Below, piece by piece: positions 16,005 to 45,899 of a DNA stretch of 54,153 nucleotides. Made by a program: the position numbers and the translations under genes. This DNA comes from Candidatus Wolfebacteria bacterium. GTDB taxonomy: Bacteria > Patescibacteriota > Minisyncoccia > Phycocordibacterales > NVSU01. The stretch spans positions 1-54,153 of the forward strand of contig NVSU01000005.1 of assembly GCA_002401345.1 (NCBI GenBank). The letters are read 5' to 3'. Numbering within the stretch: position 1 is the stretch's first letter; every line of letters starts with the position of its first letter. The notes under the pieces were generated by a model. It worked only from the letters and a program-made list of their open reading frames with translations, ran no database searches and was not told the DNA's origin.

Positions 16005-16253
16005 CCCCGCCCCCTATGCTTTATGTTATACGTTTATATATTAAAATGGAAAAGTACTGGCGATTTATACATAGGATATACAAATGATCTCAAACGAAGA
16101 ATGAGGGAGCATAATAATGAAGCGTCTTGTACTATAATTTATTATGAAGCCTATCAAACTGAGGATTTAGCTCGAGATCGAGAGAGGAAGCTTAAACACT
16201 ATGGTAGCTCTTGGAGAGCTCTCGGAAAGCGAATAACTTCCTAGGGGGCGGGG
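16005..16253 (+). mobile_element. GIY-YIG mini-cassette bounded by a 12-nt GC inverted repeat
   Basis: ccccgcccccta (16005-16016) and tagggggcgggg (16242-16253). The right repeat contains the TAG stop of the enclosed gene. Confidence 0.7.
16023..16244 (+). CDS. GIY-YIG nuclease family protein (UPF0213/YhbQ-like)
   Basis: 73 aa. YVYIL..GDLYIGYTNDLKRRMREH matches the GIY-(X10)-YIG plus R..H core. Confidence 0.8.
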   Translation: MLYVYILKWKSTGDLYIGYTNDLKRRMREHNNEASCTIIYYEAYQTEDLARDRERKLKHYGSSWRALGKRITS

Positions 16254-33263: not shown

Positions 33264-33941
33264 TTATTCTAGTTCTTTGTGAGCCTCTTCTTCCAGTTTC
33301 TTTATTTCTTCTTCCAGTATTTCAATTTTTTTGATTTCATCTTGAAGTTTTGTGTCTATGTGTTGCAGATCTTTGATTTCTTTTATGTCTTGTCCGAGCT
33401 CTTCCTTTAATTTTTTTAATGTGTCGAGTCCGGCGCGAACATCACTCTCATCATTTTGAATTTTAGATAGTATTTTATCGTGAAGTGCTTGTAGGTCATC
33501 CACTTTCTTCTTAAAGTTCGTTAGTTGTATTTCGGGGATACTCGTATCCGCTATAGACCCTATCTCTTTTTCTACTTGTGCCTCTAATTCTTTTATTTCA
33601 GTAGCAGTATCCTCTCCAGTCCGCTTCGACGAAGCTTCAGCGAGGCGAGTTGATGGAGGGGTCGCTACCTCTTCACTGGGTACAGGCTGTGTGGCAGTTT
33701 CAGGGATAATTATGTTATCAGCGTCTCCGCCAGCCCGCTTCGACTCAGCGAGGCGAGCTGGTGGATGAGTCTCTTCTGCTTTATCAGGTGTTGGTTGTGC
33801 AGGTGGTGGTACATTTGCATCAGCCTGCTCAGATGGCGCAGTTGTTTCTTTGGATGGTTGATTTTCATCAACAAATTCTACGTCAGGCGTAGTATCGGCA
33901 GTTGTATCAGTTGGAATTATTTTATTGTTATCATCATTCAT
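33264..33941 (-). CDS. Acidic Pro-rich / coiled-coil protein carrying two in-frame palindromic elements
   Basis: 225 aa, no signal peptide. PPARLAESKRAGG and PPSTRLAEASSKRTGE are encoded by the GC-rich palindromes. The C-terminal heptad-like EEEIKKLEEE is shared with the VirB4 tail. Confidence 0.5.
   Translation of the reverse strand: MNDDNNKIIPTDTTADTTPDVEFVDENQPSKETTAPSEQADANVPPPAQPTPDKAEETHPPARLAESKRAGGDADNIIIPETATQPVPSEEVATPPSTRLAEASSKRTGEDTATEIKELEAQVEKEIGSIADTSIPEIQLTNFKKKVDDLQALHDKILSKIQNDESDVRAGLDTLKKLKEELGQDIKEIKDLQHIDTKLQDEIKKIEILEEEIKKLEEEAHKELE
33614..33658. repeat. In-frame GC-rich palindromic element, copy with degenerate outer arms
   Basis: Core ccgcttcgacgaagcttcagcgaggcga is identical to the reverse complement of the core at 34239-34266. 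Confidence 0.8.
33727..33764. repeat. In-frame GC-rich palindromic element, 38-nt variant
   Basis: ccgccagc-ccgcttcgactcagcgaggcga-gctggtgg. Lacks the central 6 nt (gaagct) relative to the 44-nt form. Confidence 0.8.
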
Positions 33942-34007
33942 TATATTGTAAGGTTATTTTTTAATACTATTATTATATCAGTTTAATTCTTAAGAAAATA
34001 ATACGGA

Positions 34008-36179
34008 TTAAAGGTTTTTAAATTCTTCTTCAAGTGTTTTAATTTCATCCTCTATTTGCTGTTTGGTTGTTTCCATTTGTGCTATGCGACCTTTTTTCTT
34101 TTGTGGAGTGGGTTTCTTCTTTATGGGCGCTATTTCAGTGTCTGCGACTGGTATGGGTGTAGGTTGTTCGGGTGGTGCACTTTCTTCTGCGGTGACGGGT
34201 TCTTCTGTAATTTCAGGTTCTTTTTCTTCTCCGCCAGCTCGCCTCGCTGAAGCTTCGTCGAAGCGGGCTGGCGGATTTTCTTCCCTAGGTGGTGTTTCTA
34301 TTTCAGGGACAATAAGTTCCGGTTCCTCGAGTTCTTCTGCAGCTTTTGCTTCTGCGAGCTCCCTTTTAGCTTTTTGAATAGTGAGGAGTTGAGATGGATC
34401 TGAAGTGATAATTTGATCCTCAGTATATGAGGCGATGATTTTTATTGCGACGTGTTTCAATCCAGCAAAGAAAATTCCCTCACCAATATCAGATTCCAAT
34501 AGAAGAAACTTTTCTTCATCAGTGAGACTAAAGGTCTTTTGAAGAAGATCAATTGCACTAGGAGATTGTTTCAAGAGCAATTGAAGTGAAGAGTTTGTAA
34601 CAATTGGAACTCCATAAGGTGACTTCATAAAGTCCCCTACGTCCTGCGTAATAGTTGCGAGACCTAAAAAATATTTTCGGCCACGTTTTGCAATACTATA
34701 GAGGAACGATGCGGTGTCTTCTGATTTCATCATCCACCATGCCTCATCAACTACAAGTAGTCTTTTTTTCAAATTTTTTCGTACTGCATTCCAAATATAG
34801 TGAGTAATAATGTACATCGCTGCTGGCTTCAGCTCGTCTTCCATATCTCTCACAGAGAATACGATAAATTTTTTATTTATATCAATATTAGTTGGTTGGT
34901 TTATGAACTGAGCCCATGATCCCTTTGTATATTTACTGAGTCGCTGAACAATTGACTCACTTCCCTCCATTCCTGAGAGTACAAGTTCAAAATCTGAAAG
35001 CAGAGGGGGCTCAATGGTTGCAAAGTCTGACTCAGGTGTAATATCTTTAAGTGCATAGGTTTCGGAAATAGCTCGATCAATAATAGAGTCTTCTTCAGGA
35101 GTAAGACCACCAAGCATGATTCTAAAGAGCCCTACAAGTTGAATAATATTTGACCGTAATACGTCGGAAGGTGTCTCGTCTTCTCGTGGTGGTGGTAGGT
35201 CAAAGGGATTTATATGGTGCTGTGAAGACAGTGACATATTGAAATATCGGCCCCCCACAGCCTCAACAAGATAGGTGTACTCTTTCTCAGGGTCAATCAC
35301 AATCACATCTGTATCAAACATAAGTGATCTCAGTATCTCTAGTTTTGTTGCATAGCTTTTTCCTGCACCTGACTTTGCAAAGATGATCGAATTGTAATTT
35401 TCTAATGAAAATCTGTCAAAAATAACTAAACTCGCATTATGTCTATTTACTCCATAAAGAATTCCTTTATCTGAGGTGAGGTCAAATGATACAAATGGGA
35501 AAATACTCGACAGGGGTTCAGAATTTAGCTTTTGGTGCACCTTCAGTAAGTCTGTGCCTGTGGGAATCACACTCTTAAATCCTTCTTCTTGTTGGAAAAG
35601 TGCAGGTTTAATATATACAAGCTTTGCATCAAGGATTGATTTGATTTCATTTTCTATCTTAAAGAGTTCGGTTTCGTCATCTGCATAAATAGTTATATAG
35701 AGTCCCACTTCAAATATTTTTTGCTGAGCTTGTTGCAATGTATCACGCAATGATTCCAGGTCTTGGAATGCAGTATCAAGAATCGGATCTCGTACAAGTC
35801 CTCGCGCTCGTCGTGCATTGATCTGACTTTGCACTTCAGCAACTTTCTTCTGAAATTGTTTTAATATTTTTGCAGTATCAACTGGGTGTATAAAAATTGA
35901 AATATCGAAAATTTTATCAAGATTTATGATTGGAGAAAACCAATTATCTGTTAAAAAACGAGGATATGAAATAACAAAAAAGGTTCGAGCAATTTTTTCT
36001 CCTAGATTGAGAGATTTTGCATCTATCTTCAGTGCTGAAGGTGCAATAATATCCTGAAGCTCGAGCTTTGCTGCCTCATAAATATCTTCTGGAAGCACAG
36101 GAAGTACTGTAGGTTCTGGAGCGTGCACTCCTCCCTTTTTCTTTCCTATTTTTTTAAAAATGTTGTCGAATAGTGCCAT
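34008..36179 (-). CDS. virB4: VirB4-family T4SS ATPase (C-terminal two-thirds of a Gram-positive-type VirB4) with a disordered / coiled-coil tail
   Basis: IAPSALKI..RTFFVISYPRFL, Walker A KSGAGKSY, Walker B LLVVDEAW. Start set at ATG 36179 because the track start at 36200 is a GTG inside an inverted-repeat element. Confidence 0.85.
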   Translation of the reverse strand: MALFDNIFKKIGKKKGGVHAPEPTVLPVLPEDIYEAAKLELQDIIAPSALKIDAKSLNLGEKIARTFFVISYPRFLTDNWFSPIINLDKIFDISIFIHPVDTAKILKQFQKKVAEVQSQINARRARGLVRDPILDTAFQDLESLRDTLQQAQQKIFEVGLYITIYADDETELFKIENEIKSILDAKLVYIKPALFQQEEGFKSVIPTGTDLLKVHQKLNSEPLSSIFPFVSFDLTSDKGILYGVNRHNASLVIFDRFSLENYNSIIFAKSGAGKSYATKLEILRSLMFDTDVIVIDPEKEYTYLVEAVGGRYFNMSLSSQHHINPFDLPPPREDETPSDVLRSNIIQLVGLFRIMLGGLTPEEDSIIDRAISETYALKDITPESDFATIEPPLLSDFELVLSGMEGSESIVQRLSKYTKGSWAQFINQPTNIDINKKFIVFSVRDMEDELKPAAMYIITHYIWNAVRKNLKKRLLVVDEAWWMMKSEDTASFLYSIAKRGRKYFLGLATITQDVGDFMKSPYGVPIVTNSSLQLLLKQSPSAIDLLQKTFSLTDEEKFLLLESDIGEGIFFAGLKHVAIKIIASYTEDQIITSDPSQLLTIQKAKRELAEAKAAEELEEPELIVPEIETPPREENPPARFDEASARRAGGEEKEPEITEEPVTAEESAPPEQPTPIPVADTEIAPIKKKPTPQKKKGRIAQMETTKQQIEDEIKTLEEEFKNL
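34231..34274. repeat. In-frame GC-rich palindromic element, full 44-nt form
   Basis: ccgccagctcgcctcgctgaagcttcgtcgaagcgggctggcgg folds into a stem of about 22 bp with 2 mismatches. 32 of 44 nt are G/C by my count. Encodes NPPARFDEASARRAGGEEK. Confidence 0.85.
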
Positions 36180-36189
36180 AAATATTTTA

Positions 36190-36320
36190 GCATCTAGCAC
36201 CTAGGCACTAGCATCTAGTTTCGTTATTAATAAATGTAACATTTTTATAATTTTATTATTGATTTCTTTCATATTGAATTTAATTTTAAGGCTAGTTGCC
36301 AGTCGCTAGTGCCTAGGTGC
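36190..36320. repeat. Decayed four-helix-bundle cassette (inverted-repeat-bounded relic)
   Basis: Perfect 16-nt inverted repeat gcacctaggcactagc (36197-36212) / gctagtgcctaggtgc (36305-36320). The interior keeps a 23-codon remnant MKEINNKIIKMLHLLITKLDASA, which resembles the last helix of four-helix-bundle proteins. Confidence 0.65.
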
Positions 36321-36973: not shown

Positions 36974-37413
36974 GAGTTAAGAGTTAAGAATAATGATTAA
37001 TGACTGAAAGTTTTAGATTTTTTAATTAATCCATTGATAAGTTTATGGGTTGTTACTGTTCTGTTTGCAATATCATTAGATCCTTTTTGATCTATGAACC
37101 CTAAATCCTTCGTGATTAATATTTGATTCTGAATTTCTGTAAGTGATCCAAGAGCTATCAAATAGAACCTTATTTTATCAGGATAAGAACCCCGACTAAA
37201 CCCTTCAGCTAAATTGGATGTTATTGAAACAGAGGCCCTTTTCATTTGTGAAGTTAGTCCAAATTGTTCTTCTCTTGGAAATTTTATTGTCATTTCATAC
37301 ATAATCATAACTAATTTATGGCCTTCTTTCCATGCATAAAGATCAGTAAAAGATTTAATTTTATTTTCTTCCTTATTCATACTTCATTATTCCTTAATCT
37401 TTATTCTTTATTG
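36974..37413 (-). mobile_element. Intact four-helix-bundle mini-cassette with imperfect inverted-repeat flanks
   Basis: ttaagaataatg (36984-36995) versus cattattccttaa (37385-37397), bracketing the 127-aa gene. The flanks overlap the stop codons of the cassette gene and of the upstream prgI-like gene. Confidence 0.6.
36997..37380 (-). CDS. Four-helix-bundle protein (23S rRNA intervening-sequence protein family)
   Basis: FTDLYAWKEGHKL, FPREEQFGLTSQMKRASVSITSNLAEGFSR, LIALGSLTEIQNQ. Confidence 0.8.
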   Translation of the reverse strand: MNKEENKIKSFTDLYAWKEGHKLVMIMYEMTIKFPREEQFGLTSQMKRASVSITSNLAEGFSRGSYPDKIRFYLIALGSLTEIQNQILITKDLGFIDQKGSNDIANRTVTTHKLINGLIKKSKTFSH

Positions 37414-41285: not shown

Positions 41286-41319
41286 TTTGTCTACTAACTA
41301 TTTGCTACTTTCTGTGTAT

Positions 41320-41357
41320 CCCGACGTAAAGTCGGGACCCCGACTGTAGCGTCGGGG
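41320..41357. repeat. Tandem GC-rich hairpins (REP-like)
   Basis: cccgac-gtaaa-gtcggg, then a, then ccccgac-tgtagc-gtcgggg, in the intergenic spacer of the operon. Confidence 0.7.
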
Positions 41358-41365
41358 CTATTCTC

Positions 41366-45020: not shown

Positions 45021-45899
45021 CTAAGAATTGATTCCTTTTGTGAGACATTTCCAGTCGTTCAAAGTAAGATTTTCAGCCCGAGAATTATCTGGTAATGCAC
45101 ATGCACTCAGAATTTCTTTTTTATCTGTCTGAATGGATGACTTTTCGGTCTCATTAAAAAGAGGTTTAATGTTGCTCATGAGTAATTTTCGTTTATGTGA
45201 GAATCCAGCCTTCAGAACTTTAAAAAAATCTGTTTCGTTTATGGTATCAAAAAAATCTCGTGATATTTTGCGTACAGAAAGTATAGCTGAGTCTACTTTT
45301 GGGGCAGGAGAGAATAGTCGAGCAGGTACTTTTTCTACATACGTTGGCATTCCATATGCCTTTACACTTATTGAGAGAATGCTTTCCCTAAATCGCCTTT
45401 CGGGCGATCGGGCGACTGCGCCCGCTGGGCGCGGTTTAGCCTTTTTTCTTCGTTTTTCTATCCCAACAATTCGACGGGCAACTTCTTTTTGAACAAGTAT
45501 GGTAATAATTTCTGGTTGATGTTCTGTTTCGAGGAATTTTTTTAATATTGCCCCTGTAATGTAATACGGTATATTGGCCACTATTTTATAGGGGTTTTTA
45601 TCCAAATCAGCACTTTTAGGTTCAAAATCGAGAATATCTCCCTCGAGTAGGGTAAGTGTCCCTTTGTCTATCTCTTTTTTGAACTTTTCTTTTAAATATT
45701 CGACTAGTCTAGTGTCTTTTTCAATTGCGATAATTTTTTTTGCATGTGTCAGAAGTTTTTCTGTGAGGATTCCCTTCCCGGGACCGATTTCTAACACAAT
45801 ATCGTTCTCATTTATATTAGATGCATTCAACATAGACATCACAACTTTCTGTGATTTTAGGAAATTTTGTCCAAAAGTTTTGTTTGGTCTGAGGTTCAT
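45021..45899 (-). CDS. rsmA: 16S rRNA (adenine1518/1519-N6)-dimethyltransferase RsmA/KsgA with an internal insertion
   Basis: FGQNFL, VLEIGPGKGILTEKL, VANIPYYITG, VQKEVARRI, PKVDSAIL. An extra basic segment KRRKKAKPRPAGAVARSPERRFRES follows VQKEVARRIVG. Confidence 0.9.
   Translation of the reverse strand: MNLRPNKTFGQNFLKSQKVVMSMLNASNINENDIVLEIGPGKGILTEKLLTHAKKIIAIEKDTRLVEYLKEKFKKEIDKGTLTLLEGDILDFEPKSADLDKNPYKIVANIPYYITGAILKKFLETEHQPEIITILVQKEVARRIVGIEKRRKKAKPRPAGAVARSPERRFRESILSISVKAYGMPTYVEKVPARLFSPAPKVDSAILSVRKISRDFFDTINETDFFKVLKAGFSHKRKLLMSNIKPLFNETEKSSIQTDKKEILSACALPDNSRAENLTLNDWKCLTKGINS
45392..45441. repeat. GC-rich multi-hairpin insertion inside rsmA
   Basis: atcgcc-tttcg-ggcgat and cgggcg-actg-cgcccg (alternative gcgccc-gct-gggcgc). 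36 of 50 nt are G/C by my count, in an AT-rich gene. Confidence 0.7.

What the first reader, a model, noticed from the sequence alone, without database searches (positions are those of the whole stretch)
33614..34292. GC-rich palindromic element inserted in frame, in both orientations, in two adjacent genes (RPE-like behaviour)
A 44-nt near-perfect palindrome (ccgccagc tcgcctcgctgaagcttcgtcgaagcgg gctggcgg, 34231-34274, 32 of 44 nt G/C) lies in the tail of virB4. Two variants lie in the next ORF: 33614-33658 has the same 28-nt core in the opposite orientation, and 33727-33764 lacks the central 6 nt. All are translated:
- NPPARFDEASARRAGG;
- PPSTRLAEASSKRTGE;
- PPARLAESKRAGG.
Because the element is palindromic, both orientations give an open frame with a similar PPA-R-(L/F)-x-E-(A)S-x-(K/R)-R-(A/T)-G peptide. 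The antisense shadow ORF 34063-34377 reads PPARLAEASSKRAGG too. Length variants differ by 6 and 30 nt, always multiples of three. This is the behaviour described for Rickettsia palindromic elements. I am not aware of an equivalent family being described for this kind of genome.
Basis: partly seen in the sequence, partly recalled or inferred. Interest (0 to 1): 0.75.

Follow-up and report, generated by a model that had tools for sequence, protein, structure and literature searches.

The report
Mobile GC-rich hairpin inside genes
A 28-30-base GC-rich palindrome is written in frame, in either orientation, into unrelated genes of this AT-rich candidate-phyla-radiation (CPR) bacterium, and the same sequence occurs letter for letter in many other uncultured bacteria, so it behaves like the gene-invading palindromic elements of Rickettsia but is smaller and more widespread.

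Summary
Three copies of a GC-rich palindrome lie in frame in the VirB4 tail (34230-34275) and in the next ORF (33612-33657 and 33726-33765). One copy is inverted relative to the other two, and 29 nt match exactly.

It is not a local oddity:
- **Fourth copy.** It lies about 5.5 kb beyond the window on the same contig, in the tail of an unrelated DUF5652 protein.
- **Absent from relatives.** A syntenic relative (L050) has the same VirB4 tail and the same downstream ORF without the element.
- **Widespread core.** The 28-nt core TCGCCTCGCTGAAGCTTCGGCGAAGCGG was found in 47 loci of other genomes, mostly CPR, plus MAGs labelled WOR-3, Elusimicrobia and Omnitrophota and two Chelativorans isolates. 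It is identical in 44 of 50 copies.
- **Genic and intergenic.** Copies lie between genes and also in frame inside ribosomal proteins L4 and S5, CarA, MiaA, PrmC, ABC transporters and others. All five stop-free frames are used; the one frame with a stop is never used.
- **Nested.** The core often sits inside other small GC-rich hairpins.

Best reading: a tiny, non-autonomous, DNA-level dispersed palindromic repeat that is tolerated in coding sequence. It behaves like a Rickettsia palindromic element (RPE) but is not a member of that family. The mobilising machinery is unknown. Literature searches failed, so novelty could not be fully checked.

The parts
34230..34275 (.). Copy A: composite element, made of outer arm TCCGCCAGC, the 28-nt core and outer arm GCTGGCGGA. 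It lies in the disordered C-terminal tail of VirB4. The mRNA (- strand) carries the 'C' strand of the core and reads PPARFDEASARRAGG.
34239..34266 (+). 28-nt core of copy A: TCGCCTCGCTGAAGCTTCGTCGAAGCGG. It differs from the pan-genome consensus at one position (G20T).
33612..33657 (.). Copy B: composite with degenerate arms (CTCTCCAGT / GTTGATGGA). Its core at 33621-33648 is inverted relative to A. It lies in frame in the 225-aa ORF and reads PPSTRLAEASSKRTGE.
   Evidence: (I1: 43 nt, 91 %)
33726..33765 (.). Copy C: composite with a short core (33735-33756, lacking the central GAAGCT). It has the same orientation as B, lies in frame in the 225-aa ORF, and reads PPARLAESKRAGG.
34008..36200 (-). 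Host gene 1: VirB4/TraC-like type IV secretion ATPase (PF19044, PF12846, DUF87). It has a roughly 115-aa Pro/Glu-rich tail ending in a conserved coiled coil. The element sits at aa 644-659.
33264..33941 (-). Host gene 2: a 225-aa protein with a low-complexity N-terminal half and a conserved C-terminal coiled coil. Its 190-aa orthologue P0122 (locus L050) lacks both copies.

Best explanation
The three palindromes belong to a family of very small, non-autonomous, GC-rich palindromic repeats. The family is copied at the DNA level to new places in AT-rich genomes.

**What is shown**
- The unit is a 28-nt imperfect palindrome. It is 30 nt with its constant flanking C and G, and nested copies are 30 nt longer than the empty host hairpin.
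- Thirty is a multiple of three, and five of the six reading frames are stop-free. An insertion into a gene therefore adds about 10 hydrophilic residues instead of breaking it.
- In this genome the core travels inside a second small hairpin (TCCGCCAGC...GCTGGCGGA), giving a roughly 46-nt composite.
- The composite has landed in either orientation in the disordered tails of three unrelated proteins. Because it is palindromic, it gives similar peptides both ways.

**What is inferred**
- Selection keeps only copies in tolerant places, such as linkers, termini and disordered tails, and in stop-free frames.
- Copying is done in trans by machinery that recognises the hairpin on one strand. The mismatch and the two G·T positions are the same in nearly every copy.
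- The most likely candidates are a hairpin-specific single-strand DNA transposase or nuclease, or templated copying between hairpins during replication. No such enzyme was found here.
For: **In this genome**
- Dispersal: four copies in three unrelated genes within about 64 kb of one contig.
- Gain and loss: the syntenic relative L050 has the same VirB4 tail architecture and the same downstream ORF but no element. L049/P0002 and 14 other tailed VirB4 orthologues also lack it.
- The host regions are not paralogous beyond the element.

**Across genomes**
- A 28-nt degenerate pattern allowing 256 variants is expected about 0.004 times by chance in 596 Gb under uniform composition (my calculation). 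It hit 47 loci.
- 44 of 50 copies are the identical asymmetric sequence. Shuffles gave none.
- Neighbouring genes are diverse housekeeping genes.
- Copies sit in frame in PrmC, metallo-beta-lactamase, TPP enzyme, amidase, ABC transporter, ribosomal proteins L4 and S5, MiaA, CarA, a response regulator and others. Most are in linkers or tails.
- Genic orientation is 9 against 11. All five open frames are used and the TGA frame is used 0 of 20 times.
- Intergenic orientation is 10 against 6.

**DNA-level rather than protein-level**
- The same nucleotides occur in different frames and in spacers.
- Nesting: GGATTCCCGC-TTTC-GC[core]GC-GGGAATGACA occurs alongside empty hairpins of the same family.
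- Flanks are more self-complementary than permuted controls, 125 against 101±8, p = 0.0035.
Against: - No transposase, RAYT or IS200-like gene was found in any of the fetched loci.
- No clean empty site or unambiguous target duplication exists for the window copies, because the flanks are fast-evolving low-complexity sequence.
- The flank dinucleotides fit palindrome extension (AC/GT) as well as a GC duplication.
- Very few decayed copies exist: 3 with 1-4 mismatches, of which only one needs more than two, and none with 5-7 in 403 kb. That is unusual for neutral selfish repeats and points to very recent spread, homogenisation or selection on the sequence.
- The core has the same orientation relative to the GGAATGACA hairpin in 15 of 15 cases. 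Composites, rather than the core alone, may therefore be what is copied.
- Weak direct similarity upstream of A and B (p about 0.007 before correction for 12 tests) leaves room for local duplication plus flipping.
- Identity between phyla is hard to explain. Some MAG phylum labels are unreliable.
Confidence: 0.7

Rival explanations
1. Ordinary local segmental or tandem duplication within low-complexity tails. One ancestral GC-rich segment was duplicated between neighbouring genes, and the palindromic centre later flipped.
For: - The window copies share lineage-specific features: the outer arms and the G20T change.
- B and C are 108-114 nt apart in one ORF.
- The sequence upstream of A and B shows weak direct similarity, ATTGTCCCTGAAA against ATTATCCCTGAAA, p about 0.007 uncorrected.
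Against: - A fourth copy lies in an unrelated DUF5652 gene about 40 kb from VirB4.
- The same core is in 47 loci of other genomes, in unrelated genes and spacers.
- The ORF225 and VirB4 tails are not significantly similar outside the element.
- The other flank comparisons are at chance level.
- A is inverted relative to B and C.
Confidence: 0.1
2. A functional nucleic-acid site kept by selection rather than a selfish repeat. Examples would be the core site of a tyrosine recombinase (11-6-11 bp, like Xer/dif or pdif sites) or an RNA or DNA hairpin bound by a conserved host protein.
For: - The core is 28 bp and can be read as 11-nt imperfectly inverted arms around a 6-nt AAGCTT centre.
- The asymmetry is conserved in 44 of 50 copies across distant taxa, and decayed copies are almost absent.
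- In L014 two inverted copies flank a 1.55-kb gene module.
- The hairpins are stable.
Against: - There are many copies per genome: at least 6 exact copies in each of two MAGs.
- About 40 % lie inside coding sequence of unrelated essential genes.
- There is no orientation bias relative to transcription.
- Variants lacking or replacing the central spacer exist.
- There is no match to any Rfam family.
- The sequence is unlike dif consensus sequences (my knowledge).
Confidence: 0.12
3. A protein-level short linear motif (PPAR-x-x-EAS-x-x-RAGG) selected in disordered tails, for example for secretion or interaction. The DNA palindrome would be a by-product.
For: All four copies in this genome lie in disordered tails or linkers and give similar peptides. 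Two of the hosts belong to the T4SS gene cluster.
Against: - The DNA is identical between copies read in opposite orientation: 29 nt exact between B and the reverse complement of A.
- Elsewhere the same nucleotides are read in five different frames, giving unrelated peptides (RLAEASAKR, LASLKLRRS, PLRRSFSEA, ASPKLQRG, RFAEASARR), and they occur in intergenic DNA.
- Orthologues do without it.
Confidence: 0.03
4. Assembly or sequencing artefact, or contamination by a synthetic sequence.
For: The sequence is identical in many unrelated assemblies, and it contains a HindIII site.
Against: - It is embedded in frame in conserved genes with the downstream conserved sequence still in frame.
- It has different native flanks in each locus.
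- It is present in assemblies from many groups and methods, and in two isolate genomes.
- It shows lineage-specific variants.
Confidence: 0.01

Closest known systems
Rickettsia palindromic elements (RPE-1 to RPE-10)
   Same: - Palindromic repeats dispersed in a reduced, AT-rich genome.
- A large fraction inserted in frame into unrelated housekeeping genes and translated as extra peptide segments.
- No autonomous partner known.
- The behaviour is as summarised in PMC10969869.
   Different: - RPEs are about 100-150 bp and add about 30-50 residues. This core is 28-30 nt (10 residues), or about 46 nt as the window composite.
- There is no sequence similarity, and no RPE model was among the NCBIfam matches.
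- The host range is CPR and other uncultured lineages rather than Rickettsia.
- The core is nearly invariant between phyla and nests inside other small hairpins.
REP / REPIN elements mobilised by RAYT (TnpA-REP) transposases
   Same: - Imperfect palindromes of 20-40 nt with a conserved asymmetry.
- Many copies per genome, in both orientations.
- Often clustered or paired.
- Thought to be recognised as single-strand hairpins.
   Different: - REPs are extragenic by definition, whereas about 40 % of these copies are genic and in frame.
- No conserved GTAG-like tetranucleotide lies next to the hairpin.
- No RAYT-like ORF was found in the fetched loci.
- REP sequences are species- or genus-specific, whereas this core is shared across phyla.
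GC clusters of yeast mitochondrial DNA and related double-hairpin elements of fungal mitochondria (from my own knowledge; not checked in papers here)
   Same: - Palindromic GC-rich islands of 30-50 bp in a very AT-rich genome.
- Optional and mobile, in either orientation.
- Occasionally inside coding sequence (var1) without destroying it.
- Several sequence families.
   Different: They occur in organelle rather than bacterial genomes, are unrelated in sequence, and are mostly intergenic.
Bacterial MITEs that fuse in frame (Correia/NEMIS, ERIC, Coxiella QMITE1, Anabaena MITEs)
   Same: They are non-autonomous repeats with inverted ends that can create in-frame fusions (PMC10969869).
   Different: - MITEs are 50-500 bp with defined terminal inverted repeats and target-site duplications derived from a parent IS.
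- Here the whole element is one 28-30-nt hairpin, no parent IS is known, and the target duplication is ambiguous.

Membership tests
Rickettsia palindromic elements (RPE) | Sequence belongs to one of the RPE families (RPE peptide models exist in NCBIfam/TIGRFAM) | tested here: not met
   NCBIfam scan of both host regions and of element peptides returned no RPE family. Pfam gave nothing over the element.
Rickettsia palindromic elements (RPE) | Length about 100-150 bp, encoding a conserved peptide of 30-50 residues | tested here: not met
   The core is 28-30 nt and the composite 40-46 nt, giving 10-16 residues.
Rickettsia palindromic elements (RPE) | Palindromic repeat inserted in frame into unrelated protein-coding genes, and also intergenic | tested here: met
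   Four copies lie in three genes of this genome. In other genomes, 17 copies lie in Pfam-supported ORFs and about 30 are intergenic.
REP / REPIN (RAYT-associated) | Short imperfect palindrome repeated many times per genome | tested here: inconclusive
   The imperfect palindrome is confirmed. At least 6 exact copies occur in each of two MAGs, and 4 in 64 kb here. Whole-genome counts were not obtainable.
REP / REPIN (RAYT-associated) | Extragenic location | tested here: not met
   About 40 % of copies are inside ORFs with Pfam domains. All four copies of this genome are genic.
REP / REPIN (RAYT-associated) | Conserved tetranucleotide (GTAG type) next to the hairpin, and a RAYT gene flanked by REPs | tested here: not met
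   Only one constant base lies on each side (C...G), and the flanks are otherwise variable. jackhmmer with IS200 TnpA and E. coli RAYT, both sequences recalled from memory, found nothing among ORFs of all loci and the window. Only 8-kb samples of the other genomes were held.
MITE | Terminal inverted repeats plus a direct target-site duplication; derived from a parent IS | tested here: inconclusive
   Nested copies are exactly 30 nt longer than empty host hairpins and show GC on both sides. However, GC is its own complement, and the AC/GT flanks (6 copies) fit palindrome extension rather than direct duplication. No parent IS was seen.
Xer/dif-type tyrosine-recombinase core site | 28 bp arranged as 11-bp arm, 6-bp spacer, 11-bp arm; one site per replicon, or pairs flanking modules; intergenic | tested here: not met
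   The geometry fits. But copies are numerous, often genic, and include variants without the spacer.
Rfam RNA families | Match to a curated covariance model | tested here: not met
   No match reached a gathering score in the whole window, and there were only chance-level matches at E above 1 over the region.

The most novel reading that the evidence does not exclude
The 28-nt core may be one module of a previously undescribed, currently active system of nesting GC-rich mini-hairpins. On this reading the system moves horizontally between very distant bacteria (CPR, other uncultured phyla, even Chelativorans). It is copied by an unknown hairpin-specific machinery. It routinely writes 10-residue segments into essential proteins such as ribosomal proteins, CarA, MiaA, KsgA and VirB4. 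That would make it a general source of linker and tail evolution in ultra-small genomes.
Probability: 0.3. Interest if true: 0.85.

Novelty: new variant of a known kind. Interest (0 to 1): 0.68.

Why it matters
In-frame palindromic repeats have so far been treated as essentially a Rickettsia peculiarity.

- **A second case.** This element is much smaller, occurs in CPR bacteria and has a far wider distribution. Protein-invading palindromes may therefore be a general feature of reduced, AT-rich genomes.
- **Annotation.** It gives a concrete explanation for odd GC-rich islands, for extra linker and tail segments, and for spurious small ORFs in CPR genome annotations.
- **A testable question.** The near-perfect identity of a 28-mer across distant lineages, with a conserved strand asymmetry, implies either an unknown trans-acting machinery or cross-phylum DNA traffic. 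Comparing which genes co-occur with the element across genomes could identify that machinery.
- **Practical uses.** The element can mark strain-level insertions, and it warns that such segments should be masked in phylogenomic alignments.

Tried and rejected
- **Rfam.** The whole window and a permissive scan of the region gave nothing.
- **Metagenome scan.** It returned only one short contig (L048) and not the source genome. In hindsight the consensus would have been more informative.
- **Viral contigs, phages and plasmids.** There were no exact hits in viral contigs. BLAST against phage and plasmid records gave only chance-level partial matches. There is therefore no evidence for a phage or plasmid vector.
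- **Peptide-profile search of the 5.8-billion-protein set.** With a padded alignment it returned 388 word-sharing candidates, none with E of 10 or below. It was uninformative.
- **AlphaFold2 of VirB4.** With 30 close homologues the model was poor (mean pLDDT 43.5). I used it only to note that residues 617-696 are predicted coil before a terminal helix.
- **Mobilising enzyme.** Neighbouring genes are unremarkable. There were no IS200- or RAYT-like ORFs. Small GIY-YIG genes are sometimes nearby, 23 nt away in L006, but not consistently.
- **Precise empty site for the window copies.** The DNA alignment with L050 is too diverged in the low-complexity region.
- **Extension of the source contig to the right.** Only short contigs were returned.
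- **Literature.** Nine of ten searches timed out (among others). Only one MITE review could be read. Prior description of this family cannot be excluded.
- **Rejected ideas.** An invertible segment between A and B was rejected because inversion would not give usable ORFs. An integron attC site was rejected because there is no consistent AAC/GTT. CRISPR was rejected because the copies are single.
Full report
**1. The observation**

The window is about 36 % G+C. All genes around the finding are on the minus strand:
- a PrgI-family protein;
- a 23S-rRNA-IVP four-helix-bundle protein;
- a TraC-like protein;
- a 730-aa VirB4/TraG-P-loop ATPase (34008-36200);
- a 225-aa ORF (33264-33941);
- a 331-aa ORF;
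- a 906-aa pilin/M15-peptidase protein.

The best VirB4 homologues are named Nomurabacteria or Paceibacterota, so the organism is a Parcubacteria-type CPR bacterium.

- Copy A (34231-34274) is 44 nt with 32 G/C, and 36 of 44 positions are self-complementary.
- Its outer pattern occurs once in the window and in none of 100 shuffles.
- Copy B shares a 29-nt exact match with the reverse complement of A and only 8 nt with A itself.
- Copy C has the orientation of B and lacks the central GAAGCT.
- All quoted peptides and the antisense ORF are correct.
- The copies fold into hairpins of -25 to -33 kcal/mol on at least one strand, with z down to -5.

The anatomy has two layers. A 28-nt core (34239-34266; 33621-33648; a 22-nt short form at 33735-33756) sits between 9-nt arms TCCGCCAGC / GCTGGCGGA.

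**2. It is not confined to these two tails**

The 225-aa ORF and the VirB4 tail are not significantly similar apart from the element and a short coiled-coil motif.

Extending the source contig by 10 kb (L051, ENA scaffold TULL18-1_49) revealed a fourth copy of the same composite.
- It carries the same G20T core variant.
- It lies in frame in the C-terminal tail of a DUF5652 membrane protein and reads EENPPARFDEAPARRADGK.
- A profile of the four copies finds no others in the roughly 64 kb held from this genome, and none in two relatives.

**3. Orthologues lack it**

- Most VirB4 orthologues are 605-615 aa and have no tail.
- Fifteen of the listed orthologues, those of 650 aa or more, have tails. 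None contains the peptide.
- L050 is a syntenic relative. Its VirB4 tail has the same start (ELIIPTIETP...) and the same conserved end (KKGRMAQIEKTKEQIEDEIRTLEDEFKNL) but no GC-rich palindrome.
- Its orthologue of the 225-aa ORF (P0122, 190 aa) lacks both copies. The length difference of 35 aa compares with 29 aa contributed by the two elements.
- The conserved C-terminal helices remain in frame downstream of the insert. The element must therefore be translated for the conserved ends to be made.
- The low-complexity flanks are too diverged for a base-precise empty site.
- A poor AlphaFold2 model (mean pLDDT 43.5) predicts coil for residues 617-696 and a terminal helix. This is compatible with a disordered linker, but it is weak evidence.

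**4. The core is a widespread, almost invariant sequence**

I scanned one genome per species (596 Gb) with the symmetric degenerate pattern YCGCYTCGMYGAAGCTTCRKCGARGCGR, which allows 256 variants. About 0.004 matches are expected by chance under uniform composition (my calculation). The scan gave 47 loci.

The loci come from:
- Daviesbacteria (four MAGs, up to six or seven contigs each), Roizmanbacteria, Levyibacteriota, Saccharibacteria, Parcubacteria and Spechtbacterales;
- MAGs labelled WOR-3 (six contigs of one MAG), Elusimicrobia, Omnitrophota, Planctomycetia, Bacteroidetes and Gammaproteobacteria;
- two Chelativorans isolate genomes.

Some labels are unreliable. L031 ('Gammaproteobacteria') is 100 % identical over 7.6 kb to L036 (Levyibacteriota). 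The Chelativorans copies sit in 65-67 % GC DNA at non-orthologous intergenic sites, one of them 30 nt after truB.

Sequence conservation:
- 44 of the 50 copies, counting the two full-length window copies, are the identical asymmetric 28-mer TCGCCTCGCTGAAGCTTCGGCGAAGCGG.
- The one C·A mismatch and the two T·G positions are therefore conserved, not random decay of a perfect palindrome.
- A relaxed rescan of all 403 kb held found only three further full-length copies, with 1, 2 and 4 mismatches. It found none with 5-7 and none in shuffled sequence.
- A handful of variants have a shortened or replaced centre, like window copy C.

There are no matches in Rfam or in viral contigs. Phage and plasmid records gave only chance-level partial matches.

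**5. Where the copies sit**

Neighbouring genes are ordinary and diverse, including ribosomal proteins, SecY, tRNA synthetases and ABC transporters. There is no enrichment of transposases.

Seventeen copies lie inside ORFs with clear Pfam domains:
- **Between domains:** PrmC (N-terminal and methyltransferase domains), an ABC transporter (membrane and ATPase domains) and CarA.
- **C-terminal tails:** ribosomal proteins L4 and S5, a TPP enzyme and a response regulator.
- **Inside the domain span or near its end:** MiaA, a metallo-beta-lactamase, a beta-lactamase-2 protein, an amidase and GvpL.
- **Within 10-44 residues of the annotated start:** EndoV, L7/L12, an ABC-2 protein and GvpL. For these the true start could lie downstream of the element.

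Frame and orientation:
- Counting the window, the mRNA carries one strand 9 times and the other 11 times.
- All five stop-free frames are used: RLAEASAKR 6, LASLKLRRS 2, RFAEASARR 4, PLRRSFSEA 5 and ASPKLQRG 2.
- The one frame with TGA is used 0 of 20 times. With neutral use of all six frames that outcome has a probability of about 0.03.
- The remaining roughly 30 copies are intergenic, mostly between co-directional genes, with no strong orientation bias (10 against 6).

The same nucleotides are thus read in different frames or not read at all. The conserved object is DNA (or RNA), not a peptide.

**6. Ends, targets and nesting**

- The base on each side of the core is constant (C...G).
- The next pair covaries: GC/GC 23 times, AC/GT 6 times and GC/GT 4 times (p = 0.0065).
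- Positions 3-10 of the flanks are more complementary than permuted controls, 125 against 101±8, p = 0.0035.
- In 15 of 50 copies the core is followed by G..GGAATGACA. It sits inside a second hairpin family, GGATTCCCGC-TTTC-GCGGGAATGACA, always at the same place and in the same orientation.
- Empty hairpins of that family occur nearby, at L005 1235, L012 1706 and L041 1057, the last inside the same MiaA gene.
- The filled form is exactly 30 nt longer, with GC on both sides. Thirty is a multiple of three, which explains why insertions never shift the frame.
- It cannot be decided here whether GC is a target duplication, a 2-nt microhomology or part of a 32-nt palindrome.
- The window's outer arms resemble a third hairpin family (TCCGCC-N3-GGCGGA). 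This family is empty in L029, L030 and L045 and filled in L015 and L042.
- The window element is therefore a core nested in another mini-hairpin, and this composite is what has multiplied in this genome.

**7. How it most likely works**

*Shown:*
- a DNA-level repeat family;
- dispersal to unrelated sites within and between genomes;
- both orientations;
- a length that is a multiple of three, with stop-free frames;
- location in linkers and tails;
- absence from close orthologues.

*Inferred:*
- Copies arise by insertion of the hairpin, alone or as a nested composite, preferentially into GC-rich palindromic contexts.
- Selection then removes insertions in the stop frame or in structured parts of proteins.
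- The conserved strand asymmetry suggests recognition of a single-strand hairpin by a trans-acting enzyme, as for REP/RAYT or IS200/IS605. Templated copying between hairpins at stalled forks is an alternative.

No enzyme was found. Small GIY-YIG genes are sometimes nearby but not consistently.

Two features remain unexplained: the near absence of decayed copies, and the identity of the sequence between distant taxa. They are the main reason to keep a 'selected functional site' rival alive, for example a recombinase core site of 11-6-11 geometry. Against that rival stand the genic location, the copy number and the spacer-less variants.

Local duplication may have contributed to the B/C pair. 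Upstream of A and B there is weak direct similarity, p about 0.007 before correction for 12 tests. Local duplication cannot explain the DUF5652 copy or the other genomes.

**8. Comparison with known systems**

- **RPE.** The behaviour matches Rickettsia palindromic elements as summarised in PMC10969869: palindromic, dispersed, and often in frame in unrelated genes. Membership fails on sequence (no RPE model among the NCBIfam matches), on size (28-46 nt against about 150 bp) and on host.
- **REP/REPIN.** The element resembles these in size and hairpin asymmetry. It is not extragenic, it lacks a conserved adjacent tetranucleotide, and no RAYT was seen.
- **Yeast mitochondrial GC clusters.** In size, composition and genomic setting the closest analogues are the GC clusters of yeast mitochondria. 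This is from my own knowledge and was not checked here.

I file it as a new variant of a known kind. Literature searches failed repeatedly, so prior description cannot be excluded.

**9. Verdict**

Confidence is 0.7 that this is a dispersed, non-autonomous, DNA-level palindromic repeat tolerated in coding sequence. The mechanism of copying is open. Interest is 0.68.

Noticed in passing
window 45385-45443 (inside ORF 45021-45899, - strand): A different GC-rich multi-hairpin cluster (ATCGCC-TTTCG-GGCGAT, CGGGCG-ACTG-CGCCCG and others; -32 kcal/mol) lies in frame inside KsgA/RsmA. It reads KAKPRPAGAVARSPERRFRE and splits the TIGR00755/PF00398 match into two stretches. It is a second, unrelated in-frame palindromic insertion in the same genome. 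No other copy was found in the held loci.
   Followed up: partly
L051 16454-16501 (same contig, about 5.5 kb beyond window position 1): A fourth copy of the window-type composite lies in frame in the C-terminal tail of a DUF5652 protein (L051 16402-16731, - strand).
   Followed up: yes
window 41318-41360; L051 11565-11610: An intergenic double-hairpin repeat (TCCCGACG..GTCGGGA followed by CCCCGAC..GTCGGGG, about -22 kcal/mol) is present twice in this genome. It is another small GC-rich repeat family.
   Followed up: partly
window 36997-37380 (- strand): A 23S-rRNA-intervening-sequence-type four-helix-bundle gene is wedged between the PrgI and TraC-like genes of the T4SS cluster. The relative L049 has only a 330-nt gap with no called gene at that place, so the gene looks like a separate insertion.
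   Followed up: partly
window 16023-16244 (+); L006 4376-4624: Small stand-alone GIY-YIG nuclease ORFs were seen. One in L006 starts 23 nt from a core copy, and others lie 0.5-1.5 kb from cores in L017, L020 and L039. There is no consistent linkage.
   Followed up: partly
L004, L008, L009, L024, L037, L047, L012, L005, L041 (for example L041 1057-1081): A second widespread mini-hairpin family, GTCATTCC(C/T)GC-N4-GC(G/A)GGAATCC, occurs both empty and with the 28-nt core nested in it. It also lies inside genes such as MiaA in L041 and CarA in L047.
   Followed up: partly
L014 4588-4673 and 6226-6311: Two 86-nt composite copies (core plus neighbouring hairpins), 95 % complementary, flank a 1.55-kb segment encoding Maf and an unknown protein. 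This could be an inverted duplication or a module bounded by the elements.
   Followed up: partly
L031 versus L036: Contigs assigned to a 'Gammaproteobacteria' MAG and to a Levyibacteriota MAG are 100 % identical over 7.6 kb. L037 ('Gammaproteobacteria') is 78 % identical to a Daviesbacteria locus over 1 kb. Phylum labels of several MAG loci should therefore not be trusted.
   Followed up: yes
L001 2783-2810; L010 7331-7358: The exact consensus 28-mer occurs in two cultured Chelativorans species (65-67 % GC) at different intergenic sites. This is an unexpected host for an element otherwise seen in AT-rich uncultured lineages.
   Followed up: partly
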